Shown here: piece after piece, positions 1-62,810 of the stretch | How positions within the stretch are numbered: the stretch's first letter is position 1 | How the letters are laid out: every line of letters starts with the position of its first letter | NCBI RefSeq assembly: GCF_009914755.1 | Contig: NC_060933.1 | DNA length: 64,000 nucleotides | Strand: one strand, 5' to 3' | Source of the DNA: the human T2T-CHM13v2.0 reference genome, Homo sapiens | Made by a program: the position numbers and the translations under genes | Notes under the pieces: generated by a model | Told to the model about the DNA's origin: nothing | Database searches by the model: none | The model's input: the letters and a program-made list of their open reading frames with translations, nothing else

Positions 1-6640
<6,640 letters not shown>

Positions 6641-49719: not shown

Positions 49720-50159
49720 TGTTATGCATTGAATTGTGTCCCCGAAGTGATCCACTGAAACCATAAATACCTGTATTTCAGAATGGGACCTTTATAGACC
49801 CTAGCGTGGCTGTAGATGTAGTTAGTTAGAATGAGGTCCCTCTGGAGCTGGGCCCTATATTCAGCAGGATGGATATCCTTACACAAAGATAATGTGAAGA
49901 CAAAGGAACAGAGAGCACCATGTGTCAAGAGGGACAACATTGAAGAGCTGCAGCTACAACCAAGGAATGCCAAAAAGCAGCAGCAATCCATGTGAAGTTA
50001 GGAAGAAGAAAAGAGGATGCTCCCCAAAGGTTTCAGAACAACATTGGCACTGCCAACACCTGGATTTTAGCTTGCAGCATTCAGAACCATGAGAAAAAAA
50101 AATTCTTTTGTTTTAAACCAGTTTAGGTTCTTCGTTACATCCACCCTGGGAATCTCACA
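49720..50159 (+). mobile_element. MLT1C-like MaLR solo LTR
   Basis: tgttatg..ttgaattgtgtcccc start, ccaaggaatgcc and gccaacacctggatttt internal motifs, ...aca end. Confidence 0.8.
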
Positions 50160-52405
50160 GTAGGGCCTTAGAGCTATTCTAGGAGTCTGTCCTTTTACTT
50201 CAATTGTCACACTGATTTATAAAGAATATTAAAACTAAGAATAAAGGGAAATTTATATCTTCCAAATGTCCTCCAGGAAGCAAAGCTTTGAACATTTCTT
50301 GGTTAAGAGATTTAAAATTATATATACTAGTAAAATTATGAAACTTCATCTATTATCATTTTTCCCTCACATCTGGACTAATGCCAGGGAGAAGGAAAGG
50401 CTGAAAAGGTTAGTGATCAGTGTGTGTGTTAGGATAATTTCTTGAGATGTTATCCTGGCTTGGCATGATACTGTATTATTCCGTCTCACATTTCCATTCC
50501 CCAGCCCAGTTCAAGCAGGCTGCCTGGGCCTTGGTTTTTGCCCGTCTAGCTTACTTTTGAAGGGCTATGCTAGAAAGGAGATGCCTAAAGCTGCACTTCC
50601 AATTGTTTATAAATGCCCAAAGACATATAAAAAGTTATACAAGTAACCCTGATAGGACTTGAGCCAGAGAGAGAGTGAAATACAGAGACAGACACAGAAA
50701 AAGAAACAGAAGGGAGATAATATGATTATTTCCTTAAATTACCCTGAGGTTGAAACTTCCCTATCCAAGGGAAGAGATATGATCCTTGTCAGCATTCTTT
50801 CTGTCCCCAGTGAGGGACACAAGTACAGAGGTGAGAGGACCATGTGGGATTGCACTGAGTGTTGCAGCGGTAGCCATTGAGGACAGTGCAGCCCAAGGAT
50901 CTTAGTGCTTTGGCGCTAAGACCCTGGGTTCAGTGCACACCTTCATGGGTGTCCCCATTAGAACAATGTCTGATGTTGAATTCTCTACTAAGTAACAGAA
51001 TTGGGATTGCTATTGATTTAGTAAAGAAGAAAGGTGGATATTTTCTGCACGTGAGAGACTGTGCCTTAAAATTGATACCTGTTGCGCAAAAACAGTCTTT
51101 GGGAATAAGAAAGGTAGGGGTCATGACACATCTGGGAAACTAGAGGGAAAAATGGAGAGAAAGATAGGCTAGTAGTAGGAGTATGTACTGGTGCAGACTG
51201 AGGCAACTACTTCAGTAGATAGTAGATAATAGTGACAGCCCTCAGTGTTATCAGTTAAGGACGAACTTGGAGAAAATGTGTTCTGGAATGGACAGTGAGC
51301 TGTGTACTGCAGATAAGTAAGTCTGAATGCAAGAGTTACAATGAGCAACAAAGGTTCCACCATGAAAGCACAACTCTTAAAACATGTTGGCTTTCTCCCC
51401 AAACAGTTACATTCTGTCGTTCTCTGCTCTCTCAATGAGAAGAAGCTCTCCAGGAGGGACTAAGAGAGGACATGATAAACCTTAGAGCCTTGGTTATGAT
51501 TGACCATGTATGGAACTTTGGAATATAGGAACTTCTATGTTAGTCTCCTATAATTCTGTTTACAGACATTTGATTGAAGCAATTTACTTTTTCTAAAGTA
51601 AATTTTTTCTAAAGTGCATTTTCTCTGTAAAGGCTAGCTAATATGTATGGATACAGAGGTTGAAGAAACTGACTAAATTTAAAAATGATACCATGATGTT
51701 TTACCAACTCTAAGAAATGCTCATATTATTTCATGGTTTGTTTTACTTACGTAAATGTTCTGTAAATTCTAAAATGGTAGACTTGAATCCATTTCCTCGC
51801 TAGTTCTTTCTGAGACAAAAAATGAGTTATTTATTCAGTTATCTCTATGATTATATATTTATTTAAAAGCATAAAAAACCTTACTAGAGAAACAGTTGAG
51901 TTCATTTGGGCACAAAAATCTGAATATATTTATTGTCAGTTCAGCTTGCTTTCAAATAATATTTCACTAAGCCCCAAACCCTCCCACTTCCAATGAAGTA
52001 AAATATTGCAGTGTTTGTGGTTTTGTGTTCATGTAGTATACGTTGACAAAATTGATTAAATAAATGTATAACTGTTACATGTGGTTGGTGTCAGTTATGT
52101 ATAAAAAGTTATTATGTTGGTTAAAGTAATAAAGCTTTTATAATCATTATATAGTCAATGAGATTCAAAAGCAATTGATTTACATATACTCTCAATAAAA
52201 AAGAGAAAGAGACTTTTTCAGCAGAAAAAAGATCAATTTCATAGAAGTACAATAGTGAAAAGACTATGGTGTTACAGAGCAAGTGAAACATGTAAGCATT
52301 AATAATGATTTCTCACATTCTAACAATCAGTGGTCACTGAATTGGACATCACTGAATGTTTCATGGAGAATACATAGGAGGTTAGGTGAGAAGTTCACAA
52401 TTACT

Positions 52406-52632
52406 TTACTTTGTGCATACTTTCAGAAAAGTCCCTTTGTCACAACATTCTTCACAGCATAGTTTACTGGCATCATCAGCTTCACTTCTCTTTTGTCAGG
52501 AAAGTAGTACCTTTCTCAGTGACAGCTACCCCTCAGACAGAATTGCCTTCAGCTCCTGTGACAAATTAGGAATGAATCCCAACGTCATATCTAAGGTCCC
52601 TGCATCTTTATTAGTGGTGGATGACATCATCT
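52406..52632 (-). pseudogene. INSL4-like pseudogene (unit A), exon 2
   Basis: Pyrimidine tract plus CAG phase-1 acceptor (AG at 52634-52633). One uninterrupted frame EMMSSTTNKDAGTLDMTLGFIPNLSQELKAILSEG*LSLRKVLLS*QKRSEADDASKLCCEECCDKGTFLKVCTK*, colinear with recalled INSL4 [74 protein letters not shown]. Stops are TAG at 52528-52526 and TGA at 52498-52496. Confidence 0.95.
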
Positions 52633-53446
52633 CTGTGAAGTCAAAAAGGAGGGGTGAAAGGTGAGGAAAAACATTCATTTCAAAGAGGATTAGAAAAATT
52701 ACAGAATTTTGCCTGGATCGCATTGTAACCATTGCCTCAATGTAATTAAACACCAAAGAGAATCAGCAAGTATCCTAACATCTAAACAACTTAGCTTACT
52801 TAGAGTTGGGCACCTTGAAGTACTACAGTATTATTAAGGATCTGCTAACTTCACTCTCCTGTCTGTGGACTCTTTCCGTGACAATCAAGATGCTTGCACC
52901 ATGGCACTTTTGACTTTCTCTAACGCTATTTTGATTGATAACTTCCAACTGCGTTATGGACTAGATAACACTAAGGAAATTTCTTTCATAATCACAAATT
53001 TTCCAATAGAAAGACTCACATATTTAAGTCTCTATTCACATATAACTGTACGTCTATATCTACATCCACCCCAATGCCAGACATTTAACATTGATTTTCT
53101 ATGTGTGCTTTCCATTTTTCTTGTTAAATTCATCTACAGTTTTCAAAGATTTTTAATGACCATTTTCACTAATTTATTCAGAAAAAGTGAAAATTAAACA
53201 CAAATTATACTACAATCTACTCTTCCTTGGCTTGCATTAGTAATTTTCCTAAACTCAGTTTTATTTTTCCCTATTTTATAATAAAATAAACAAACTCTGA
53301 CCAACAATGTAGGAAAAGTAAATAACTCTGAAATCATGCTGTGAATCCTATAAAAAGGAAGCAAGTGTTTGCTGTACATGATGACTTTAAATGGGGTCAT
53401 TTAGTGATTTAATATGGGTTATGCATATAGTCTACAAGATGTAATT

Positions 53447-53484
53447 TTGGAAGGCAGCCGTGTGCACCACGATACCACCAATGC
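53447..53484 (-). pseudogene. 5'-half tRNA-Gly(TCC) tailless retropseudogene
   Basis: GCATTGGTGGTATCGTGGTGCACACGGCTGCCTTCCAA matches 32/38 to the recalled tRNA-Gly-TCC 5' end GCGTTGGTGGTATAGTGGTGAGCATAGCTGCCTTCCAA. Flanked by perfect 19-bp direct repeats at 53433-53451 and 53488-53506. Confidence 0.85.
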
Positions 53485-54478
53485 ACTTACAAGATGTAAT
53501 TTTGGATTCACACATTGCCTATTCAAAACCTGTTTCCTCTACATTAAATGTAAAACAATAATTAGTAATTTACCTTGGCTTTTCAGAATTTAATGCGACC
53601 TATTAGACTGACTAGAGTGGCCTCTATAGCTTTTGAAAGCTGCCCTTGCTAATTCTAACTTAACTTGCAATTTATCTTTATGACTACCCTGTGACTTGGT
53701 AAAGTTTAAATACCATTCTGGTATTGAACTACCATTCTGGTATTGAACTATGCTCAACTCTGAAATTTCACTTTTAAAATCCATTGCAGCTTCAAATGTT
53801 GAAAACATTAATCAGATCTTCAGCTATAGTGGTCTGAAGGGGTAGCTTCCCTTGTCTCTGGTCCTCTCCAATTTCTCCTCTAATGATCCAGGCATCTTTC
53901 TCTTACAACTCTTGTCCCTCAACACCCTATAAGACCCAATTAAAAAATATGCGAGGCAAGGCTCTCTTGGAGTGCATTTAAAACCATTAAAACAAAGAGA
54001 GAGATTGGACGCTTTTAATTGCTTAGGCCACAGTCTAGCTTTTGGACAAAAGAAGAGTCATTAAATCTAAGGTCCTTCCTGTCTCCCATTCGAGGACCCT
54101 AACAGGTCTCAGAGTCCCTGTGCCTGTCCGGCATGTAAAGCAGCTTGATAACCAGTGCACCACCTCTCTGTTTGCCCACTTTTCTCTCAATTCGAAATTT
54201 GCTATCCAGGTGCCTGTCCTCCTCACCCCCGGCACCTTCCTACACCCCCCACCCAGGTTCTACCTCCTCCCAGCTGTCCCACTGAGACTCTTTCAATAAA
54301 AGTACATTACAAAGGAAAAGCCCAAACTTCAGGTATCAACCTCTGTGGAGTAAGGACTGGGCAAGAGCAGCTACAGAGCTGTGGAGCCAGGCCTTGCAGG
54401 CTGCTGTTCCAATTGATCGGTTGCCCTAATGCAACCAATAGGAAGTGTGGGATGGCCAGGGATTGGGGGGCCATTTGC

Positions 54479-54680
54479 CTGTGAGTGGTCCAGATACCTG
54501 CAGAAGCTCCTCCTGGATGCTGGAGATTCTGTCCTGGGGATCCTTGTACATTGTGGTCTCTTGGAATTCAGTGCCACTTAACTTCACCTTTTCATCACTC
54601 ACCCATTTCGTGGGGTTCTCTTTGAAGCTGACTTTGCAGTAACCAGAATACTGGCAGACAGGACCAGAACAGTTGAGTAT
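54479..54680 (-). pseudogene. INSL4/relaxin-like pseudogene (unit A), exon 1
   Basis: One frame reads (T)QLFWSCLPVFWLLQSQLQRE, compare INSL4 MASLFRSYLPAIWLLLSQLLRE. After a 1-nt frameshift it reads KWVSDEKVKLSGTEF...LLQVSGPLT, compare RLN1 KWKDDVIKLCGREL and the INSL4 exon end LLESGRPK. Start codon is broken (AT-ACT). Phase-1 donor ACAG|GCAAAT. Confidence 0.85.
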
Positions 54681-54787
54681 GCTGGAGCTGGTCTGTCCTG
54701 TTCTGGGCATTTCAGTCTTTCTTTAGGGAGTGTCCCTGCTGTTGCCTAACAGCTTGTGCTTATGTGCCAACCTGGGCTTCAGACTAC

Positions 54788-54830
54788 TTTCTATATCTCT
54801 TCCTAGAGCTATTACTGACCTTTTGAGTCA
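54788..54830 (-). promoter_or_regulatory. Residual promoter of unit A: TATA-like box with adjacent AAAGGTCA and AP-1 sites
   Basis: TATAGAAA at 54795-54788, TGACCTTT at 54816-54823 and TGAGTCA at 54824-54830, about 110-150 bp upstream of the broken start codon. Motif match only. Confidence 0.4.
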
Positions 54831-55439
54831 ATGGTCCAAGTTCTACCACTTTTCCACCTACCCACAAAGAACTTTCTCCCTCAGCTCTTATTCACCCACC
54901 CTACCTCCACTCCTCATATCCCTTGTCATCTCCCTGCTCCCAAGTTCTACTCTTTGCTCAATTTTAATTTAAATTTTCTACTTCTTTTTTCTTTCCTCCT
55001 CCATGAGTATTGTTATGTTTACTAAAATATTTGTAATTTTAAATGTCATTGCTTATTTAAAGGCATGTCCTGGTCATTATGGAAAATTCAGGCAAAATAA
55101 AAATGAAATGTAAGCTCATCAGATAGAGACCGTCTCCATTAACACTTGCTGTATAACATTTACTATTCTTCCTAACTTCCCCCACATTTGTTTTTATTTC
55201 TTCTTCAAAGCAGTTAGAGATTATAATTAGATTGATTTCTATAGTGCCTTGTTTATTCATCCTCAGTATTGTGATAAGTGGATGGAGCAATTGCTCACAA
55301 AAGAAAGAAAACTGATGATATTTAAACAAAGTCCTGCGAACATTATTAAAATTTCAATAACATAACTTTAAGCTTGTATATAATAATATTTAAGGTTTAC
55401 AAGGCAATTTCCCATTCACAATTGTATAAACCTGAAATC

Positions 55440-56165
55440 TTTTTCTTCCACTTTTATTTTGGATTCAGAGGGTACATGTGCATGTTTGTTACACAGGCAT
55501 ATTGTGTGATGCTGAGGTTTGGGGTATGGATGATCCCATCACTGAGGTAGTGAGCATAGTACCCAAAAGGTAGTTTTTCAGCCCATGCCTCCCTACTTCT
55601 CCACCTCCTCTTGTAGTCCCCAGAGTCTATTGTTCCCATCGTTATGTCCATGTATACTTAATGTTTAGCTCCCACTTATAAGTGAGAATGTGTGGTATTT
55701 GGTTTTCTGTTCCTGCGTTAACTCACTTTGGATAATGGCCTCCAGCTGCATCCAAGTTGCTGCCAAGGATATTTTTGTTCCTTTTTGTGGCTGTATAGCA
55801 TTCCGTAGTGTATATTTGCCACAGTTTCTTTATCCAATTGATTACAGAGGGGCATCTAGGTTGATTCCATGTCTTTGCTATTATAAATAATGCTGCAATG
55901 AACATAAAAGTGCATGTGTCTCTTTGGCAGAAGGATTTCTTTTCCTTTGGGTATATACCCAGTAATGGGATTGCTGGGTTGAATGGTAGGTCTGTTTTAA
56001 TTTTGTTGAGAAATCTCTGAACTGCTTTCACAGTGGCTGAACTAATTAACATTCCTACCAACAATGAATAAGCATTCCCTTTTCCCTGCAGCCTCACCAG
56101 CTTGTGTTGTATTTTGACTTTTTAATAATCATCATTTTGACTGGTTGAGATGGCATCTCACTGTG
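55440..56165 (-). mobile_element. L1PB/L1PA16-like 3' end
   Basis: ORF2 C-terminus translation 55723-56097 and 3'UTR. Confidence 0.88.
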
Positions 56166-57009
56166 GATAAACTTTAAGATTTCAACTTACAGGGAATTTC
56201 AAAGATCCATACTTTTATCTGTCCTCTAGAAATCCTGTCAAGGCTGAGAAAACACAGAGATCATAGATGCTTGACTGTTAAGTCTTGGGAGAGCACCTAT
56301 GGAGGTCTTCTTAAAGTGGGGGAAAATTGGACTGTTTCTACCAATTTATTTCTTTGAACTCTCTTGGGTGATTGGTGAATTGTTTTGGTTATCTAAATAT
56401 TTTAATTTGATACTCTAATTATTAGTGATACACATTTTCATGCACAAAAATCTATCTCTTTATGATTGATTTACTACATACTGTGTGTGTGGTAATTCAT
56501 GAACAGAAATTTTATTTTTTAAACTTAAAAACAAGTCAACACAGTTTTGGGGCAATGGGCTTATTAGATAACTCTCAAAGTATTAGTAAATCTTAAATGC
56601 AAATAGTACCACTTGTTTATATGCATTGTTTGGAAAGAAAACCTAGTCAGACCAGATCTGTTCTATTCAAGTAAGCCTGAGGGATTGATGGACATTATGG
56701 TATTTTGGAAATAAATTAATAAATCCTCTTTCTTCTCAATAAAAAACATGATCTATGTTCCTCATATTGGAGGAAGTCCCAGTCATCATGCATCAAATGC
56801 TGATATTGTATAACTCTTCAAACAATACCTGCTAGGACTACACAATGATCAGAATAAGTGATTTTAGCTGTGTTTTCACTAAGACAAGGTGCTTGGGAGA
56901 GGCTTCTCAAAACTGGTGTTTCACATTTCTTTATACAGATTGATGAACTTTGGAGAATACTCTATGTGCAATGCTGTTCTACAACATAATTGATTACATA
57001 AAAATGAAT

Positions 57010-59654: not shown

Positions 59655-59954
59655 ATCTAGTTCAGGTCTTGGTTTCTGCTGTATACTGCTCAGTGGTGGT
59701 GCCATCGAGAGTTGAAGACTCCAGGGTAGGAGATGTATAGTACCCTAGAGAATAGATGGCAACTTTTGGCAAAATTCCCCTGCAACCAGGAGGAGAGACA
59801 AGCCGCAAATGAGAGGACCGTGCAGACCAGCCCTCAGTGTGTTGCAGTAGGAACCGTTGAGCACTATGGGCCCTGAGAGCTTTGATGCTTTGGTGCTAAG
59901 ACCCCAGGATTCAAGATAAAGCTCAAACGGAATAATTGTAATAAAATAATCTCT

Positions 59955-62810
59955 GTGAAAAGATAGAGGTTATTCTACTCAGTTTAATGGGTCCTATAAA
60001 ATTCTGAAAAGCCAAGGTGGATTCCCAACTATTGTTTTACATTTGATATAAATGGTACAAGTTTCACATAGGAAGTAAGTGAATCCAGAACTGCTTCTTG
60101 TAAGCCATATGCACGTCCTACATTAAGTCACTGAACGACCCCATCTACAGTTATTGTGCTCAATAAACAAACTTTCATTTTATATGGTACATAATGATTT
60201 CAAAGTTATTTCCTTTTCCTACATTGTTGGTCAGAGTTTGTTTTATTTTATTATAAAAATAAGTGAGGAATACAACAGAGTCAAAACACTTTTCTAATGC
60301 AAACGAAGGTTAAGCAACTGTACTATAATTTGTATTTAAACTTCACTCTTTCTTAGTAAATAAGTAAAGTGCTCATTTAAAGACTGAAAAATACAGATAA
60401 ATTTAATAAGAAAAAAAGAAGGTACACATGAATAATCAATGCTAATGTTTGGTATACACCTATAGATAGAGATGTACAGATTTCTGTAGACATAGATTTA
60501 AATATCTGAATCTTTCTATTGTTGTTAAAAATCATGATAATAAAAGAAATTTCCCTACTGCTACCCAGAGCATAATGCAACCGGAAGTTATAATATCAAT
60601 AAACAGTGTCAGAGAAAAGTTAAAAGTGTCACAGTGCAAGCATTTAGAGGGTCACGAGAGGAGTTCACAGAGGGACCACTAGAGATAGCACAAATTCAGT
60701 GATGTTCAACTCAATCACCACTGATTATTAGAACATGAGAGATCATCATTAGTGCTTACATATTTCACTTGCTCTGTATTAACATAGTCTCTCCACAATG
60801 GTATGTTCTTTCAAAAATGAACCATTTTTCCCTGCTAAAAGAAAGTCTCTTTCTCTTTTTAATTGATGGCATAATTATATGAATTGCTTTGAATCTTATT
60901 AACTTTATAATTATTATAAAAGATTTTCACTTTAACCAATATAATAATAATTTGTTTTATACACAAATGACACCAGGCACATATAACAGTGATAAATTTC
61001 TTTAATTTACCTTGTCAACATATACTATATGAACACAAAACCACAAACATTGTAATTTTTTACTTCAGTGGAAATGAGAGTTTTTTTGGTCTCAGATAAA
61101 TATTATTTGAACACTGTCTGAATTGATAAATATATTGGGATTTTTGTGCCCAAATAACTGAATTGTTTATCTAGTAAGGCTTTCTTTTAAAGGTTCTAAG
61201 AGATTCAATAAATATTTTTTAAATGACATAAGTATGTGATTGTACGGATAACTGAACGGATAACTCAGTTTTTTTCTCTTAGAACTAGTTGAGTAAGGAA
61301 GTGTATTCAAGTTTACCATTTAAAAATTTACAGAACATTTATGTAAGCGAAATAAATCATGAAATGATATGAGCATTTCTTAGAGTGGTAAAGCTTCATG
61401 AGATCTTCTTTAAATTTAGTCAGTTTCTTTAACCTCTATACACATAGTTTTTAGCCAGCCTTTACAGAGAAAATACAATTAGAAGTTAATCTCTTTGATT
61501 GAATGAATGTCTGTGAAGATAATTATGGAAGATGAGCACAAAAGTTCCTATATCTCAAAATTTCCATACATGGTTAATCATAACCAAGCCTCTGAGGTTT
61601 ATCGTGTCTACCCCTCGGTCCTCCTGCACAGCTTCTTCCCATTGAGAGGGCAGAGATCAACAGAATGTAACTCTTCAGGAAGAAATCCAATGTGTTTCAA
61701 GAGTTATGCTTTCACTGAGGGATCTTTGTTGCTGATTGAAACTCTTGCATTTAGACTTAGTTATCTGCCACACATTGCTCACTGGCAATTCCAGAATTCC
61801 ATTCACTCCAAGGTCCCCCTCTTCCTTCTAGTCTTCATCTCATACTTAACTGATAATACTGAGGGCTGTCACTACCATCCACTGACTCAGTTACCTCCAT
61901 CTTCATCAGTACATACACCTACTCTTAGCATATCTTTTCCTGTTTTTTATATGAGAATTACCACCAGAAGGCCACTCCTCTACCTGCCCAGGTATGTTAT
62001 GGCCCATGCATTTCTTATTCCTGAAAGACTGTTTGTCTGTTAACAGGTATGAATTTGCAAGCACAGGTTCTGGTGTGCAGAAAATATCAACTTCTTCTGC
62101 TTTAACCAATCAATAGAAATCCAATTTCTGTCACTTGCTATGGAATTCAGCATCAGAAATTGTTCTAATGGAGATACCCATGAAAGTGTGCACTAAACCC
62201 AGGATCTTAGCACCAAAGCACAAAGCTCCTCAGGCTGCACTGCTCTCAGCTGCTACCACTGCAACACTCAATGCAATCCTGCATGGTCCTCTCAGCTCTG
62301 TGCCTGCTTCTATCTCTGGGGACAGAAAGAATGTCAACAAAGATGATATCTCTTCCCTTGGGCACAACATTGTCATTTATTCTAAGGTCTTTGCCTCTTT
62401 AGGCCATGGGTACTGAACACTGCACAGCAAAACCAGGCTTTCTACCTCAGCAAAGTATAAAGAAATTATCATATTCTCTCCCTTCAGTCTCATTTTCTGT
62501 CTCTCCCTGCCTCTATTTCTTTCTCTTTGACTCAGGTCTTGTCAGGGACACTTGCATAACCTTCCGCTTGTCATCAGGCATTTACAAACAATTCCAAGTG
62601 CTGCTTTAAGTACCTCCTGTGTACAGCCCTTCAAAGATGGACTAGACAGGCAAAAACCACCAAGACCCAGAGAGTCTGCTCAAAATGAGCTAGGCAAATG
62701 CAGATGTGACAGAATTGTAAGATACAATGAGACCAAGCTAGGATAACTCAAGAAATTATACTAACACACATGCCAATCACTAACCTTTTCGGCCTTTCCT
62801 TTTCTCTGGT
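59955..62810 (+). pseudogene. Inverted paralogue of unit A (unit C): intron and 3' flank, exon 2 deleted, exon 1 absent
   Basis: Colinear with the reverse complement of about 53636-50383. Shared strings include aaattctgaaaagccaagg, ttttcctacattgttggtcagagtttg and actgagggctgtcacta. At 60670-60692 the alignment jumps over about 52862-52358 of unit A. Confidence 0.85.

What the first reader, a model, noticed from the sequence alone, without database searches (positions are those of the whole stretch)
52406..54680. Hidden complete two-exon INSL4/relaxin-like pseudogene about 8 kb upstream of INSL6
Seen in sequence: an exon 1 with a signal peptide aligning to INSL4, a 1846-nt phase-1 intron, and an exon 2 colinear with INSL4 that keeps a KR processing site and a perfect CC-x3-C-x8-C A-chain (SKLCCEECCDKGTFLKVC, with one extra Cys). 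The ORF track shows only broken pieces. Lesions: lost ATG, 1-nt frameshift after the signal peptide, B-chain Cys TGT>AGT, no second B-chain Cys, GC donor, and nonsense codons CAG>TAG and CGA>TGA. Established: the relaxin locus has two-exon, phase-1 genes with high turnover, and INSL4 pseudogenes are reported in mammals. Inference: this is an extra, once-functional hormone gene. I cannot verify whether this copy is already annotated.
Basis: partly seen in the sequence, partly recalled or inferred. Interest (0 to 1): 0.88.

Follow-up and report, generated by a model that had tools for sequence, protein, structure and literature searches.

The report
Old dead INSL4-like gene beside INSL6
This is a real but long-dead, intron-containing extra copy of the placental hormone gene INSL4 lying just upstream of INSL6, one of several decayed copies in this gene cluster, and it matters mainly as a fossil of how the relaxin gene family expanded.

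Summary
On the minus strand, window 52406-54680 holds a two-exon relic colinear with INSL4. Exon 2 matches INSL4 exon 2 (75% DNA identity, E 9e-48; 52.7% over 74 aa without gaps, E 4.5e-19). Homology runs through the 5' flank, exon 1, the whole intron and the 3' flank, so it is an unprocessed (duplicated) pseudogene.

Two parts of the interpretation need correction.
- **It is not a recent INSL4 copy.** Non-coding divergence from INSL4 is K2P 0.31, about three times that of RLN1-RLN2, and both copies are equally far from RLN (0.49-0.50). The relic keeps the relaxin-type B-chain length and lacks the repeat insertion upstream of INSL4. It is an old INSL4-clade paralogue, roughly 60-130 My.
- **"Once functional" is not shown.** Substitutions, indels, stop codons and retained motifs all fit lifelong neutral drift.

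Two further relics exist: one in the window at 59953-62809 (+) and one outside it. RefSeq lists no gene here. I found no held paper describing it, but two key papers were not readable. Modest interest.

The parts
52406..52632 (-). Exon 2 relic: end of the C-peptide, KR site, A chain, and stop TAA (52408-52406). In-frame TAG at 52528-52526 and TGA at 52498-52496.
   Evidence: Translation. Gapless alignment to INSL4 exon 2. tblastn 52.7% over 74 aa, E 4.5e-19. Genome search 75% identity, E 9e-48 to INSL4 exon 2, and 72-73% to RLN2 and RLN1.
52633..54478 (-). Intron relic, 1846 nt, phase 1. Donor GC at 54478-54477; acceptor AG at 52634-52633.
   Evidence: 74.8% identity to the INSL4 intron over 1707 aligned nt, with 27 gap events. 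Apart from one 59-bp weak match on contig C14 (E 1.2e-4), its only genome matches are on contig C9, at INSL4, RLN1, RLN2 and the second relic in this window.
54479..54680 (-). Exon 1 relic: former start codon (ATA at 54680-54678), signal-peptide remnant in a shifted frame, and B-chain remnant (Cys codon now AGT at 54578-54576; second Cys lost).
   Evidence: Alignments. tblastn of the signal peptide 68% over 19 aa, E 0.010. Identity to INSL4 exon 1 is 60.3%.
54681..55055 (-). Promoter-proximal 5' flank homologous to the region directly upstream of the INSL4 start codon.
   Evidence: 76.4% identity over 373 aligned nt. Blastn block 55055-54283 against L006 2713-3464.
55156..56514 (-). Further upstream flank shared with INSL4 (55156-55411 and 56187-56514). 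It is interrupted by a dispersed repeat at 55440-56166 that is absent from the matching INSL4 position.
   Evidence: blocks at 75-78% to INSL4's upstream flank, adjacent there. (repeat copies genome-wide at 79-82%).
50082..52405 (-). 3' flank of the duplicated unit. It is shared with the second relic, in part with RLN2 and RLN1, and at its far end with INSL4.
   Evidence: 52357-50384 against 60694-62809, 72.7% over 2156 columns. (RLN2/RLN1 blocks; INSL4 block 50374-50082).
59953..62809 (+). Second relic of the same unit, inverted and head-to-head with the first. It holds the 3' half of the intron plus the 3' flank. The promoter, exon 1 and a 486-nt stretch holding exon 2 are missing.
   Evidence: The tree and distances give K2P 0.27 to INSL4 and 0.32 to the first relic.

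Best explanation
Window 52406-54680 (minus strand), with flanks from about 50082 to 56514, is an unprocessed pseudogene made by DNA-level duplication of a whole relaxin-type gene unit: promoter, exon 1, phase-1 intron, exon 2 and 3' flank.

Its closest living relative is INSL4, 40 kb away on the other strand. The two separated long ago, well before the RLN1/RLN2 duplication of catarrhine primates. The split came before INSL4 lost four B-chain codons and before INSL4 gained the repeat insertion upstream of its promoter.

It cannot make a hormone today. It has no start codon, two frameshifts in exon 1, both B-chain cysteines gone, a GT-to-GC donor and two premature stops in exon 2.

No trace of past selective constraint is detectable. 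The simplest reading is that it was disabled early and has drifted neutrally for most of its life.

Shown: homology, anatomy, lesions and relative divergence. Inferred: absolute age, early death and present lack of function.
For: - **Colinear homology.** Blastn against the INSL4 locus gives 5' flank 76.4%, exon 1 60.3%, intron 74.8%, exon 2 69.2% and 3' flank 78.3%. INSL4's ATG, donor, acceptor and stop map to 54680, 54479, 52632 and about 52409.
- **Exon 2 match.** E 9e-48 at DNA level and E 4.5e-19 at protein level.
- **Lesions.**
- **Distances.** On 1944 non-coding sites present in all four genes, K2P is 0.312 to INSL4, 0.496-0.499 to RLN1 and RLN2, and 0.485-0.491 between INSL4 and RLN. 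The pattern is clock-like, with this copy and INSL4 as nearest relatives.
- **RLN1-RLN2 baseline.** Outside a converted tract, K2P is 0.11-0.125 and identity per 400-column window is 87.8-95.1%.
- **Ancestral B-chain length.** RLN2 and this copy share the stretch that INSL4 lacks.
- **Repeat insertion.** The roughly 2.5-kb stretch upstream of INSL4 that is missing here is mostly a dispersed repeat. All 40 scored candidates (of 685 found) matched, and the copies with more than 1 kb aligned are 78-89% identical.
- **Neutrality on this branch.** A three-point split of the distances gives exon 2 0.156 against non-coding 0.160. Intron gap density predicts about 3.3 indels in the 420-nt coding region for one lineage, and 2-3 are seen. 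A neutral simulation at k=0.16 gives a mean of 1.31 stops in exon 2 (2 seen) and keeps all four A-chain Cys in 20% of runs.
Against: - **Hints of past constraint in exon 2.** There are no gaps in 224 nt. Poisson probability is about 0.17 if only this lineage was free to take indels, and about 0.03 if both were. All four A-chain Cys, the KR site and the acceptor are kept. Pairwise dN/dS to INSL4 is 0.56 on 71 codons. That low ratio comes from a high dS (0.59), while dN (0.33) equals the intron distance.
- **Weak exon 1 evidence on its own.** It gave no hit in the default genome search, and the protein match is E 0.010.
- **Unresolved branching.** The order among this copy, the second relic and INSL4 is not settled (67% bootstrap).
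- **No outgroup species.** The root rests on a clock assumption.
- **Soft absolute dates.** They depend on published calibration points and on rate constancy.
- **Expression.** It could not be examined.
Confidence: 0.88

Rival explanations
1. One reading: it was a working secreted hormone gene for a substantial time after duplication and was disabled only later.
For: Exon 2 has no indel in 224 nt, while the intron has 1.58 gap events per 100 aligned nt. All four A-chain Cys, the KR site and the splice acceptor are retained. dN/dS against INSL4 is 0.56.
Against: - Exon 2 on this branch changed at the non-coding rate (0.156 against 0.160).
- dN (0.33) equals the intron distance (0.31).
- Taking the key features together, 6 of 10 survive. 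Kept: four A-chain Cys, KR and the acceptor. Lost: ATG, two B-chain Cys and the donor. That is about what k=0.16 of neutral change predicts (reasoning).
- Indel and stop counts fit neutrality.
Confidence: 0.35
2. It is a young, primate- or catarrhine-specific duplicate of INSL4 that decayed fast.
For: INSL4 is the best match in the genome. Per the Introduction of PMC3971578 (passages), functional INSL4 is restricted to catarrhines.
Against: - The non-coding K2P of 0.31 to INSL4 is about 2.5-3.4 times the RLN1-RLN2 distance. That duplication is dated to 29.6-44.2 Ma in the abstract of PMC3971578.
- The copy lacks INSL4's 12-nt B-chain deletion.
- It lacks the repeat insertion upstream of INSL4.
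- A dispersed repeat whose copies are only 79-82% alike was inserted into its upstream flank after the split.
Confidence: 0.05
3. The locus still does something, for example as a non-coding RNA, a regulatory element for INSL6 or INSL4, or through the 98-codon open frame over exon 1.
For: An ATG about 30 nt upstream of the old start opens a frame with no stop through exon 1 (54722-54426; sequence). The 5' flank is as well kept as the intron.
Against: - That frame has no signal-peptide-like stretch. Joined to exon 2, it stops before the A chain.
- The 5' flank, intron and 3' flank all sit at about 75-78% identity, so nothing stands out above the neutral level.
- No expression or cross-species data were available.
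Confidence: 0.05
4. It is chance similarity or a transposable-element fragment.
For: None. Pfam found no family in exon 2.
Against: - E-values are 9e-48, 0.0 over 2006 columns and 4.5e-19.
- The intron matches relaxin-cluster loci on contig C9. The only hit outside them is a 59-bp stretch on C14 at E 1.2e-4.
- The Pfam blank is uninformative, because the genuine INSL4 exon 2 also scored nothing.
Confidence: 0.005

Closest known systems
INSL4 (insulin-like 4, placentin), chr9:5236508-5240393, + strand, in this assembly
   Same: Both have a two-exon unit with a phase-1 intron at the same position and of similar length (1846 against 1934 nt). Exon 2 is colinear with no gaps. Both have the FIPNLS...LSEG C-peptide motif, a KR site and the CC-x3-C-x8-C A chain. 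INSL4 is the nearest relative in non-coding DNA (K2P 0.31).
   Different: - The relic is on the opposite strand.
- It has no ATG, two frameshifts, no B-chain cysteines, a GC donor and two stops.
- It keeps 12 nt of the B-chain N-terminus that INSL4 lost.
- It lacks the dispersed-repeat insertion upstream of INSL4. The title of Bieche 2003, seen only in a reference list, links a retroviral element to placental INSL4 expression. That this insertion is the same element is my inference.
- INSL4's exon 2 has diverged faster from RLN2 than this copy's has (0.547 against 0.433).
RLN2 and RLN1 (relaxin 2 and 1)
   Same: Same gene unit and same strand. Flanks, exon 1, parts of the intron and exon 2 are colinear at 60-70%. 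The B-chain remnant KVKLSGTEF is closer to relaxin's VIKLCGREL than to INSL4's, and has the same length.
   Different: Much more distant (non-coding K2P 0.50). Relaxin has a longer C-peptide in exon 2 and a 3.9-kb intron.
INSL4 pseudogenes of horse, dolphin and armadillo (Arroyo, Hoffmann, Good, Opazo 2012, J Mol Evol 75:73)
   Same: The same kind of object: disabled INSL4-like copies in the relaxin cluster, used to infer an old origin of the INSL4 lineage. The species names are recalled. I saw only the title in reference lists and the statement in the PMC3971578 Introduction that INSL4 dates to the placental ancestor.
   Different: Those are reported as the counterparts of INSL4 itself in species without a working INSL4. 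This is an additional copy in a genome that does have INSL4. The paper is not held, so I could not check whether it or its primate companion paper mentions the human copy.
INSL6 (22941-44714, minus strand, same window)
   Same: Neighbouring family member on the same strand, with the same two-exon layout (hub table).
   Different: No DNA-level homology was detected beyond shared repeats. At protein level, RLN2 matches INSL6 exon 1 (E 5e-8) but INSL4 does not. It is a separate, older lineage.

Membership tests
Relaxin/insulin-like gene family, chr9 cluster gene unit | Two exons split by one phase-1 intron inside the C-peptide | tested here: met
   INSL4's and RLN2's exon ends (AAAG|GT, GCAG|GT) and exon 2 starts align to 54479 and 52632. 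The acceptor AG is kept and the donor is mutated to GC.
Relaxin/insulin-like gene family, chr9 cluster gene unit | Significant sequence homology to a family member | tested here: met
   Exon 2 gives E 9e-48 and E 4.5e-19. The whole unit is colinear with INSL4, RLN2 and RLN1.
Relaxin/insulin-like gene family, chr9 cluster gene unit | A-chain cysteine pattern CC-x3-C-x8-C preceded by a dibasic cleavage site | tested here: met
   QKRS...LCCEECCDKGTFLKVC, aligned residue for residue with the INSL4 A chain. The pattern itself is recalled knowledge, and it is matched here by INSL4, INSL6 and RLN2 read from the genome.
Relaxin/insulin-like gene family, chr9 cluster gene unit | Two B-chain cysteines | tested here: not met
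   The first is AGT (Ser) at 54578-54576, and the second has no counterpart. This is expected for a decayed copy. It bars calling it a working family member, not a relic of one.
Relaxin/insulin-like gene family, chr9 cluster gene unit | Pfam insulin-family domain hit | tested here: inconclusive
   No Pfam hit for exon 2 read through with X, and none for genuine INSL4 exon 2 either. The test has no power on a single exon.
Functional protein-coding gene | Start codon, open frame, signal peptide in frame, canonical splice sites | tested here: not met
   ATA in place of ATG, -1 and +1 frameshifts, TAG and TGA in exon 2, and a GC donor.
Unprocessed (duplicated) pseudogene | Keeps the intron and flanks of the parent unit, has no poly(A)-type retrocopy structure, and carries disabling lesions | tested here: met
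   The intron is 74.8% and the flanks 76-78% identical to INSL4's. The lesions are listed above.
Recent copy of present-day INSL4 | Divergence no greater than other primate-age duplicates in the cluster, and sharing INSL4's derived features | tested here: not met
   K2P is 0.31 against 0.11-0.125 for RLN1-RLN2. It lacks INSL4's 12-nt deletion and its upstream repeat insertion.

The most novel reading that the evidence does not exclude
The INSL4 lineage was once a small subfamily. This copy, the inverted relic at 59953-62809 and INSL4 form a near-trichotomy dating to around or before the origin of primates. A still older relic lies at chr9:5221098-5222646.

If so, orthologues of this copy should exist across primates and perhaps beyond. 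One of them could still be intact in some lineage, which would be an unrecognised relaxin-family hormone. Some 'INSL4 pseudogenes' reported in non-primates could then be orthologues of this copy rather than of INSL4.
Probability: 0.15. Interest if true: 0.6.

Novelty: new member of a known kind. Interest (0 to 1): 0.33.

Why it matters
It adds at least one complete relic and two partial relics to the human relaxin cluster. The published picture I could read has four genes there (INSL6, INSL4, RLN2, RLN1).

These fossils bear on how many relaxin-type genes the early placental or early primate ancestor had. They also show when INSL4 acquired its odd features: the shortened B chain, fast-changing exon 2 and retroelement-bearing promoter. 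In addition, they give a neutral yardstick inside the locus for testing selection on INSL4.

The relic has no evident bearing on present human physiology.

Tried and rejected
- **Default genome DNA search with exon 1.** It returned only the self match. Sensitive blastn was needed.
- **An 8-kb genome query.** It was swamped by a dispersed repeat at 55440-56166.
- **Pfam on exon 2.** It gave nothing, and nothing for the genuine INSL4 exon 2 control, so it is uninformative.
- **Large protein database search with exon 2** (stops read as X, longer proteins). 11 candidates were found and none scored. Even INSL4 was not returned, so the collection appears to lack mammalian proteins. No cross-species inference is possible from it.
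- **Dating from RLN1-RLN2 on sites aligned to this copy.** This was rejected because those sites fall in a converted tract that is 98.6-100% identical. Unconverted parts were used instead.
- **Placing the third relic in a tree.** It sits on a long branch and its position is unstable (59% and 95% for different groupings).
- **Earlier-findings tool.** It was closed.
- **Literature.** Searches found no held paper describing a human INSL4-like pseudogene next to INSL6. I read the abstract, section 8 part 1 and passages of PMC3971578, and passages of PMC3310001 and PMC4987104. None mention it.
- **Papers not held.** Arroyo et al. 2012, J Mol Evol 75:73, is not held. The companion primate paper, 'Gene turnover and differential retention...', was seen only as a reference and was not looked up. 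Either may describe this copy.
Full report
**What is there.** The window is T2T chr9:5146001-5210000, and the feature lies on the minus strand. Translating 52678-52400 in one frame gives a stretch that reads MMSSTTNKDAGTLDMTLGFIPNLSQELKAILSEG, stop, LSLRKVLLS, stop, QKRSEADDASKLCCEECCDKGTFLKVCTK, stop.
- A whole-genome DNA search with 52400-52700 finds INSL4 exon 2 at 75% identity over all 301 nt (E 9e-48). It also finds RLN2 and RLN1 exon 2 at 72-73% over about 170 nt.
- I read INSL4, INSL6 and RLN2 proteins from the genome itself and ran them by tblastn against the window. INSL4 residues 66-139, all of exon 2, align to 52633-52412 at 52.7% identity with no gap (E 4.5e-19). INSL4 residues 4-22, the signal peptide, align to 54672-54616 at 68% (E 0.010).
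- Exon 1 gave no hit in the default genome search.

**It is a duplicated gene unit, not just two exon-like pieces.** Sensitive blastn shows one colinear series of blocks against the INSL4 locus (L006):
- window 55353-55156 at 77%
- window 55055-54283 at 65%
- window 54192-52256 at 72% over 2006 columns
- window 50374-50082 at 67%

Weaker colinear series exist against RLN2 and RLN1.

In a global alignment, INSL4's ATG, last base of exon 1, first base of exon 2 and stop fall opposite 54680, 54479, 52632 and about 52409. Identity is 76.4% in the 5' flank, 60.3% in exon 1, 74.8% in the intron, 69.2% in exon 2 and 78.3% in the 3' flank. Apart from one 59-bp weak match on contig C14 (E 1.2e-4), the intron's only genome matches are on contig C9, inside the relaxin cluster. 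Because the intron and flanks are retained, this is an unprocessed pseudogene.

**Lesions.**
- ATA replaces ATG at 54680-54678.
- One nt is missing three codons later.
- One extra nt sits before the B chain. INSL4 itself lacks 12 nt here that RLN2 and this copy both have, so the gap against INSL4 is 13 nt.
- The first B-chain Cys codon is AGT (54578-54576).
- The second B-chain Cys has no counterpart.
- The donor is AG|GCAAAT, where both INSL4 and RLN2 have AG|GTGAGA.
- TAG at 52528-52526 lies opposite INSL4 CAG.
- TGA at 52498-52496 lies opposite INSL4 CGC.

Still present are the acceptor AG, the KR site, all four A-chain Cys (plus one extra) and a stop one codon later than INSL4's. A GT 18 nt upstream of the old donor would give phase 0, which does not fit exon 2.

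**Relationship and age.** I compared 1944 non-coding sites present in all four genes. K2P is 0.312 between this copy and INSL4, 0.496-0.499 between this copy and RLN1/2, and 0.485-0.491 between INSL4 and RLN1/2. The two are therefore each other's nearest relatives and equally far from relaxin.

RLN1 and RLN2 differ by K2P 0.11-0.125 in unconverted 3' parts. Their identity per 400-column window is 87.8-95.1% outside a converted tract. The split from INSL4 is thus about 2.5-3.4 times deeper.
- The RLN1/RLN2 duplication is dated to 29.6-44.2 Ma (abstract of PMC3971578). A strict clock then gives roughly 75-130 My.
- The INSL4-RLN split is placed in the placental ancestor (Introduction of PMC3971578). 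The ratio 0.31/0.49 then gives at least about 60 My.

These are rough figures, and rate slowdown in apes would pull them down.

Three independent signs agree that the split is old:
- The copy keeps the ancestral B-chain length.
- It lacks the roughly 2.5 kb that separates two adjacent homology blocks upstream of INSL4. Most of that stretch is a dispersed repeat. All 40 scored candidates (of 685 found) matched, and copies with more than 1 kb aligned are 78-89% identical.
- Its own upstream flank carries a later insertion of a repeat (55440-56166) whose copies are only 79-82% alike.

**Was it ever functional?** Splitting the distances three ways, this branch has 0.156 changes per site in exon 2 against 0.160 in non-coding DNA. 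INSL4's branch has 0.270 against 0.152, so it is INSL4's exon 2 that is accelerated.
- **Indels.** The intron gap density (27 events per 1707 nt for two lineages) predicts about 3.3 indels in 420 coding nt for one lineage. Two or three are seen, all in exon 1.
- **Exon 2 without indels.** This has Poisson probability about 0.17 on that basis.
- **Neutral simulation.** Starting from INSL4 at k=0.16, exon 2 gains a mean of 1.31 stops (2 seen) and all four A-chain Cys survive in 20% of runs.
- **dN/dS.** Against INSL4 the ratio is 0.56 on 71 codons. However, dN (0.333) equals the intron distance, and the ratio is low only because dS is 0.593.
- **Key features.** Six of ten survive.

Nothing here requires a functional period, and nothing excludes one. 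I put early death at about 0.55 and a long working life at about 0.35.

**Surroundings.**
- A second relic lies in the window at 59953-62809 on the + strand, head-to-head with the first. It matches the 3' half of the intron (69-73%) and 2.1 kb of 3' flank (72.7%). A 486-nt deletion removes exon 2, and nothing remains of exon 1. It forms a near-trichotomy with this copy and INSL4.
- A third, more diverged relic lies outside the window at chr9:5221098-5222646 (+). It retains a recognisable C-peptide remnant (EFIPNL).
- INSL4's 3' flank has one 85% copy at chr9:5215005-5216837.

**Annotation and literature.** The RefSeq table supplied with the finding lists only INSL6 in the window. Eight literature searches and the texts read gave no description of a human INSL4-like pseudogene beside INSL6. 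The two most relevant papers (Arroyo et al. 2012, J Mol Evol and Mol Phylogenet Evol) are not in the held library; the first was looked up and is not held, the second was seen only as a reference. GENCODE could not be consulted. No other mammalian genome was available, so orthologues, lesion dating and rooting remain open.

**Verdict.** This is a real, complete, unprocessed pseudogene of the INSL4 lineage. It is old rather than recent, shows no demonstrable functional past, and is one of at least three relics between INSL6 and INSL4. It is a sound catch of modest interest.

Noticed in passing
window 59953-62809 (+): A second relic of the same INSL4-type unit, inverted and head-to-head with the first. 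It holds the 3' half of the intron and about 2.1 kb of 3' flank. Exon 2 is removed by a 486-nt deletion, and the promoter, exon 1 and first part of the intron are absent. It is recognisable only through non-coding homology.
   Followed up: partly
L010:7098-8646 (chr9:5221098-5222646, + strand; outside the window, window-equivalent 75098-76646): A third, more diverged relaxin/INSL4-type relic. It has an intron-start fragment and an exon 2 remnant that still reads ...EFIPNLLQG..., with an Alu-like sequence just upstream. K2P is 0.5-0.8 to all other copies, and its tree position is unstable.
   Followed up: partly
L006:5634-7487 and chr9:5215005-5216837 (window-equivalent 69005-70837): 1.85 kb directly downstream of INSL4 exon 2 has a single 85% copy 21 kb upstream of INSL4. 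Only its first roughly 230 nt is a high-copy repeat. This is a younger partial duplication. INSL4's 3' flank here differs from the flank shared by the relics and RLN2.
   Followed up: partly
L006:195-2712 (upstream of INSL4): About 2.5 kb is present upstream of INSL4 and absent from the pseudogene. L006 467-2631 is a dispersed repeat of about 2.16 kb; all 40 scored candidates (of 685 found) matched, and copies with more than 1 kb aligned are 78-89% identical. There is an 87% internal direct repeat of about 290 nt (191-480 and 2137-2422). It is probably the retroviral element credited with INSL4's placental expression (Bieche 2003, title seen only in a reference list). That link is my inference.
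   Followed up: partly
L007/L008 (RLN2 and RLN1 loci), RLN2 reverse-strand coordinates 2499-4098: RLN1 and RLN2 are 99.5-100% identical over about 1.6 kb, from the end of exon 1 into the intron. Elsewhere they are 87.8-95.1% identical within the duplicated block. This is a very recent gene-conversion tract in this human assembly. It would bias any dating or tree that uses this part of the intron.
   Followed up: partly
window 54426-54722 (-): A 98-codon stop-free frame runs over the dead exon 1, opened by an ATG about 30 nt upstream of the former start. It arises because the -1 and +1 frameshifts cancel out. It has no signal-peptide-like segment. Joined to exon 2, it would stop at the TAG, before the A chain.
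   Followed up: no
window 55440-56166: A dispersed repeat of about 720 nt, with thousands of first-look candidates and scored copies 79-82% identical. It was inserted into the pseudogene's upstream flank after the split from INSL4, since the two flanking homology blocks are adjacent upstream of INSL4.
   Followed up: partly
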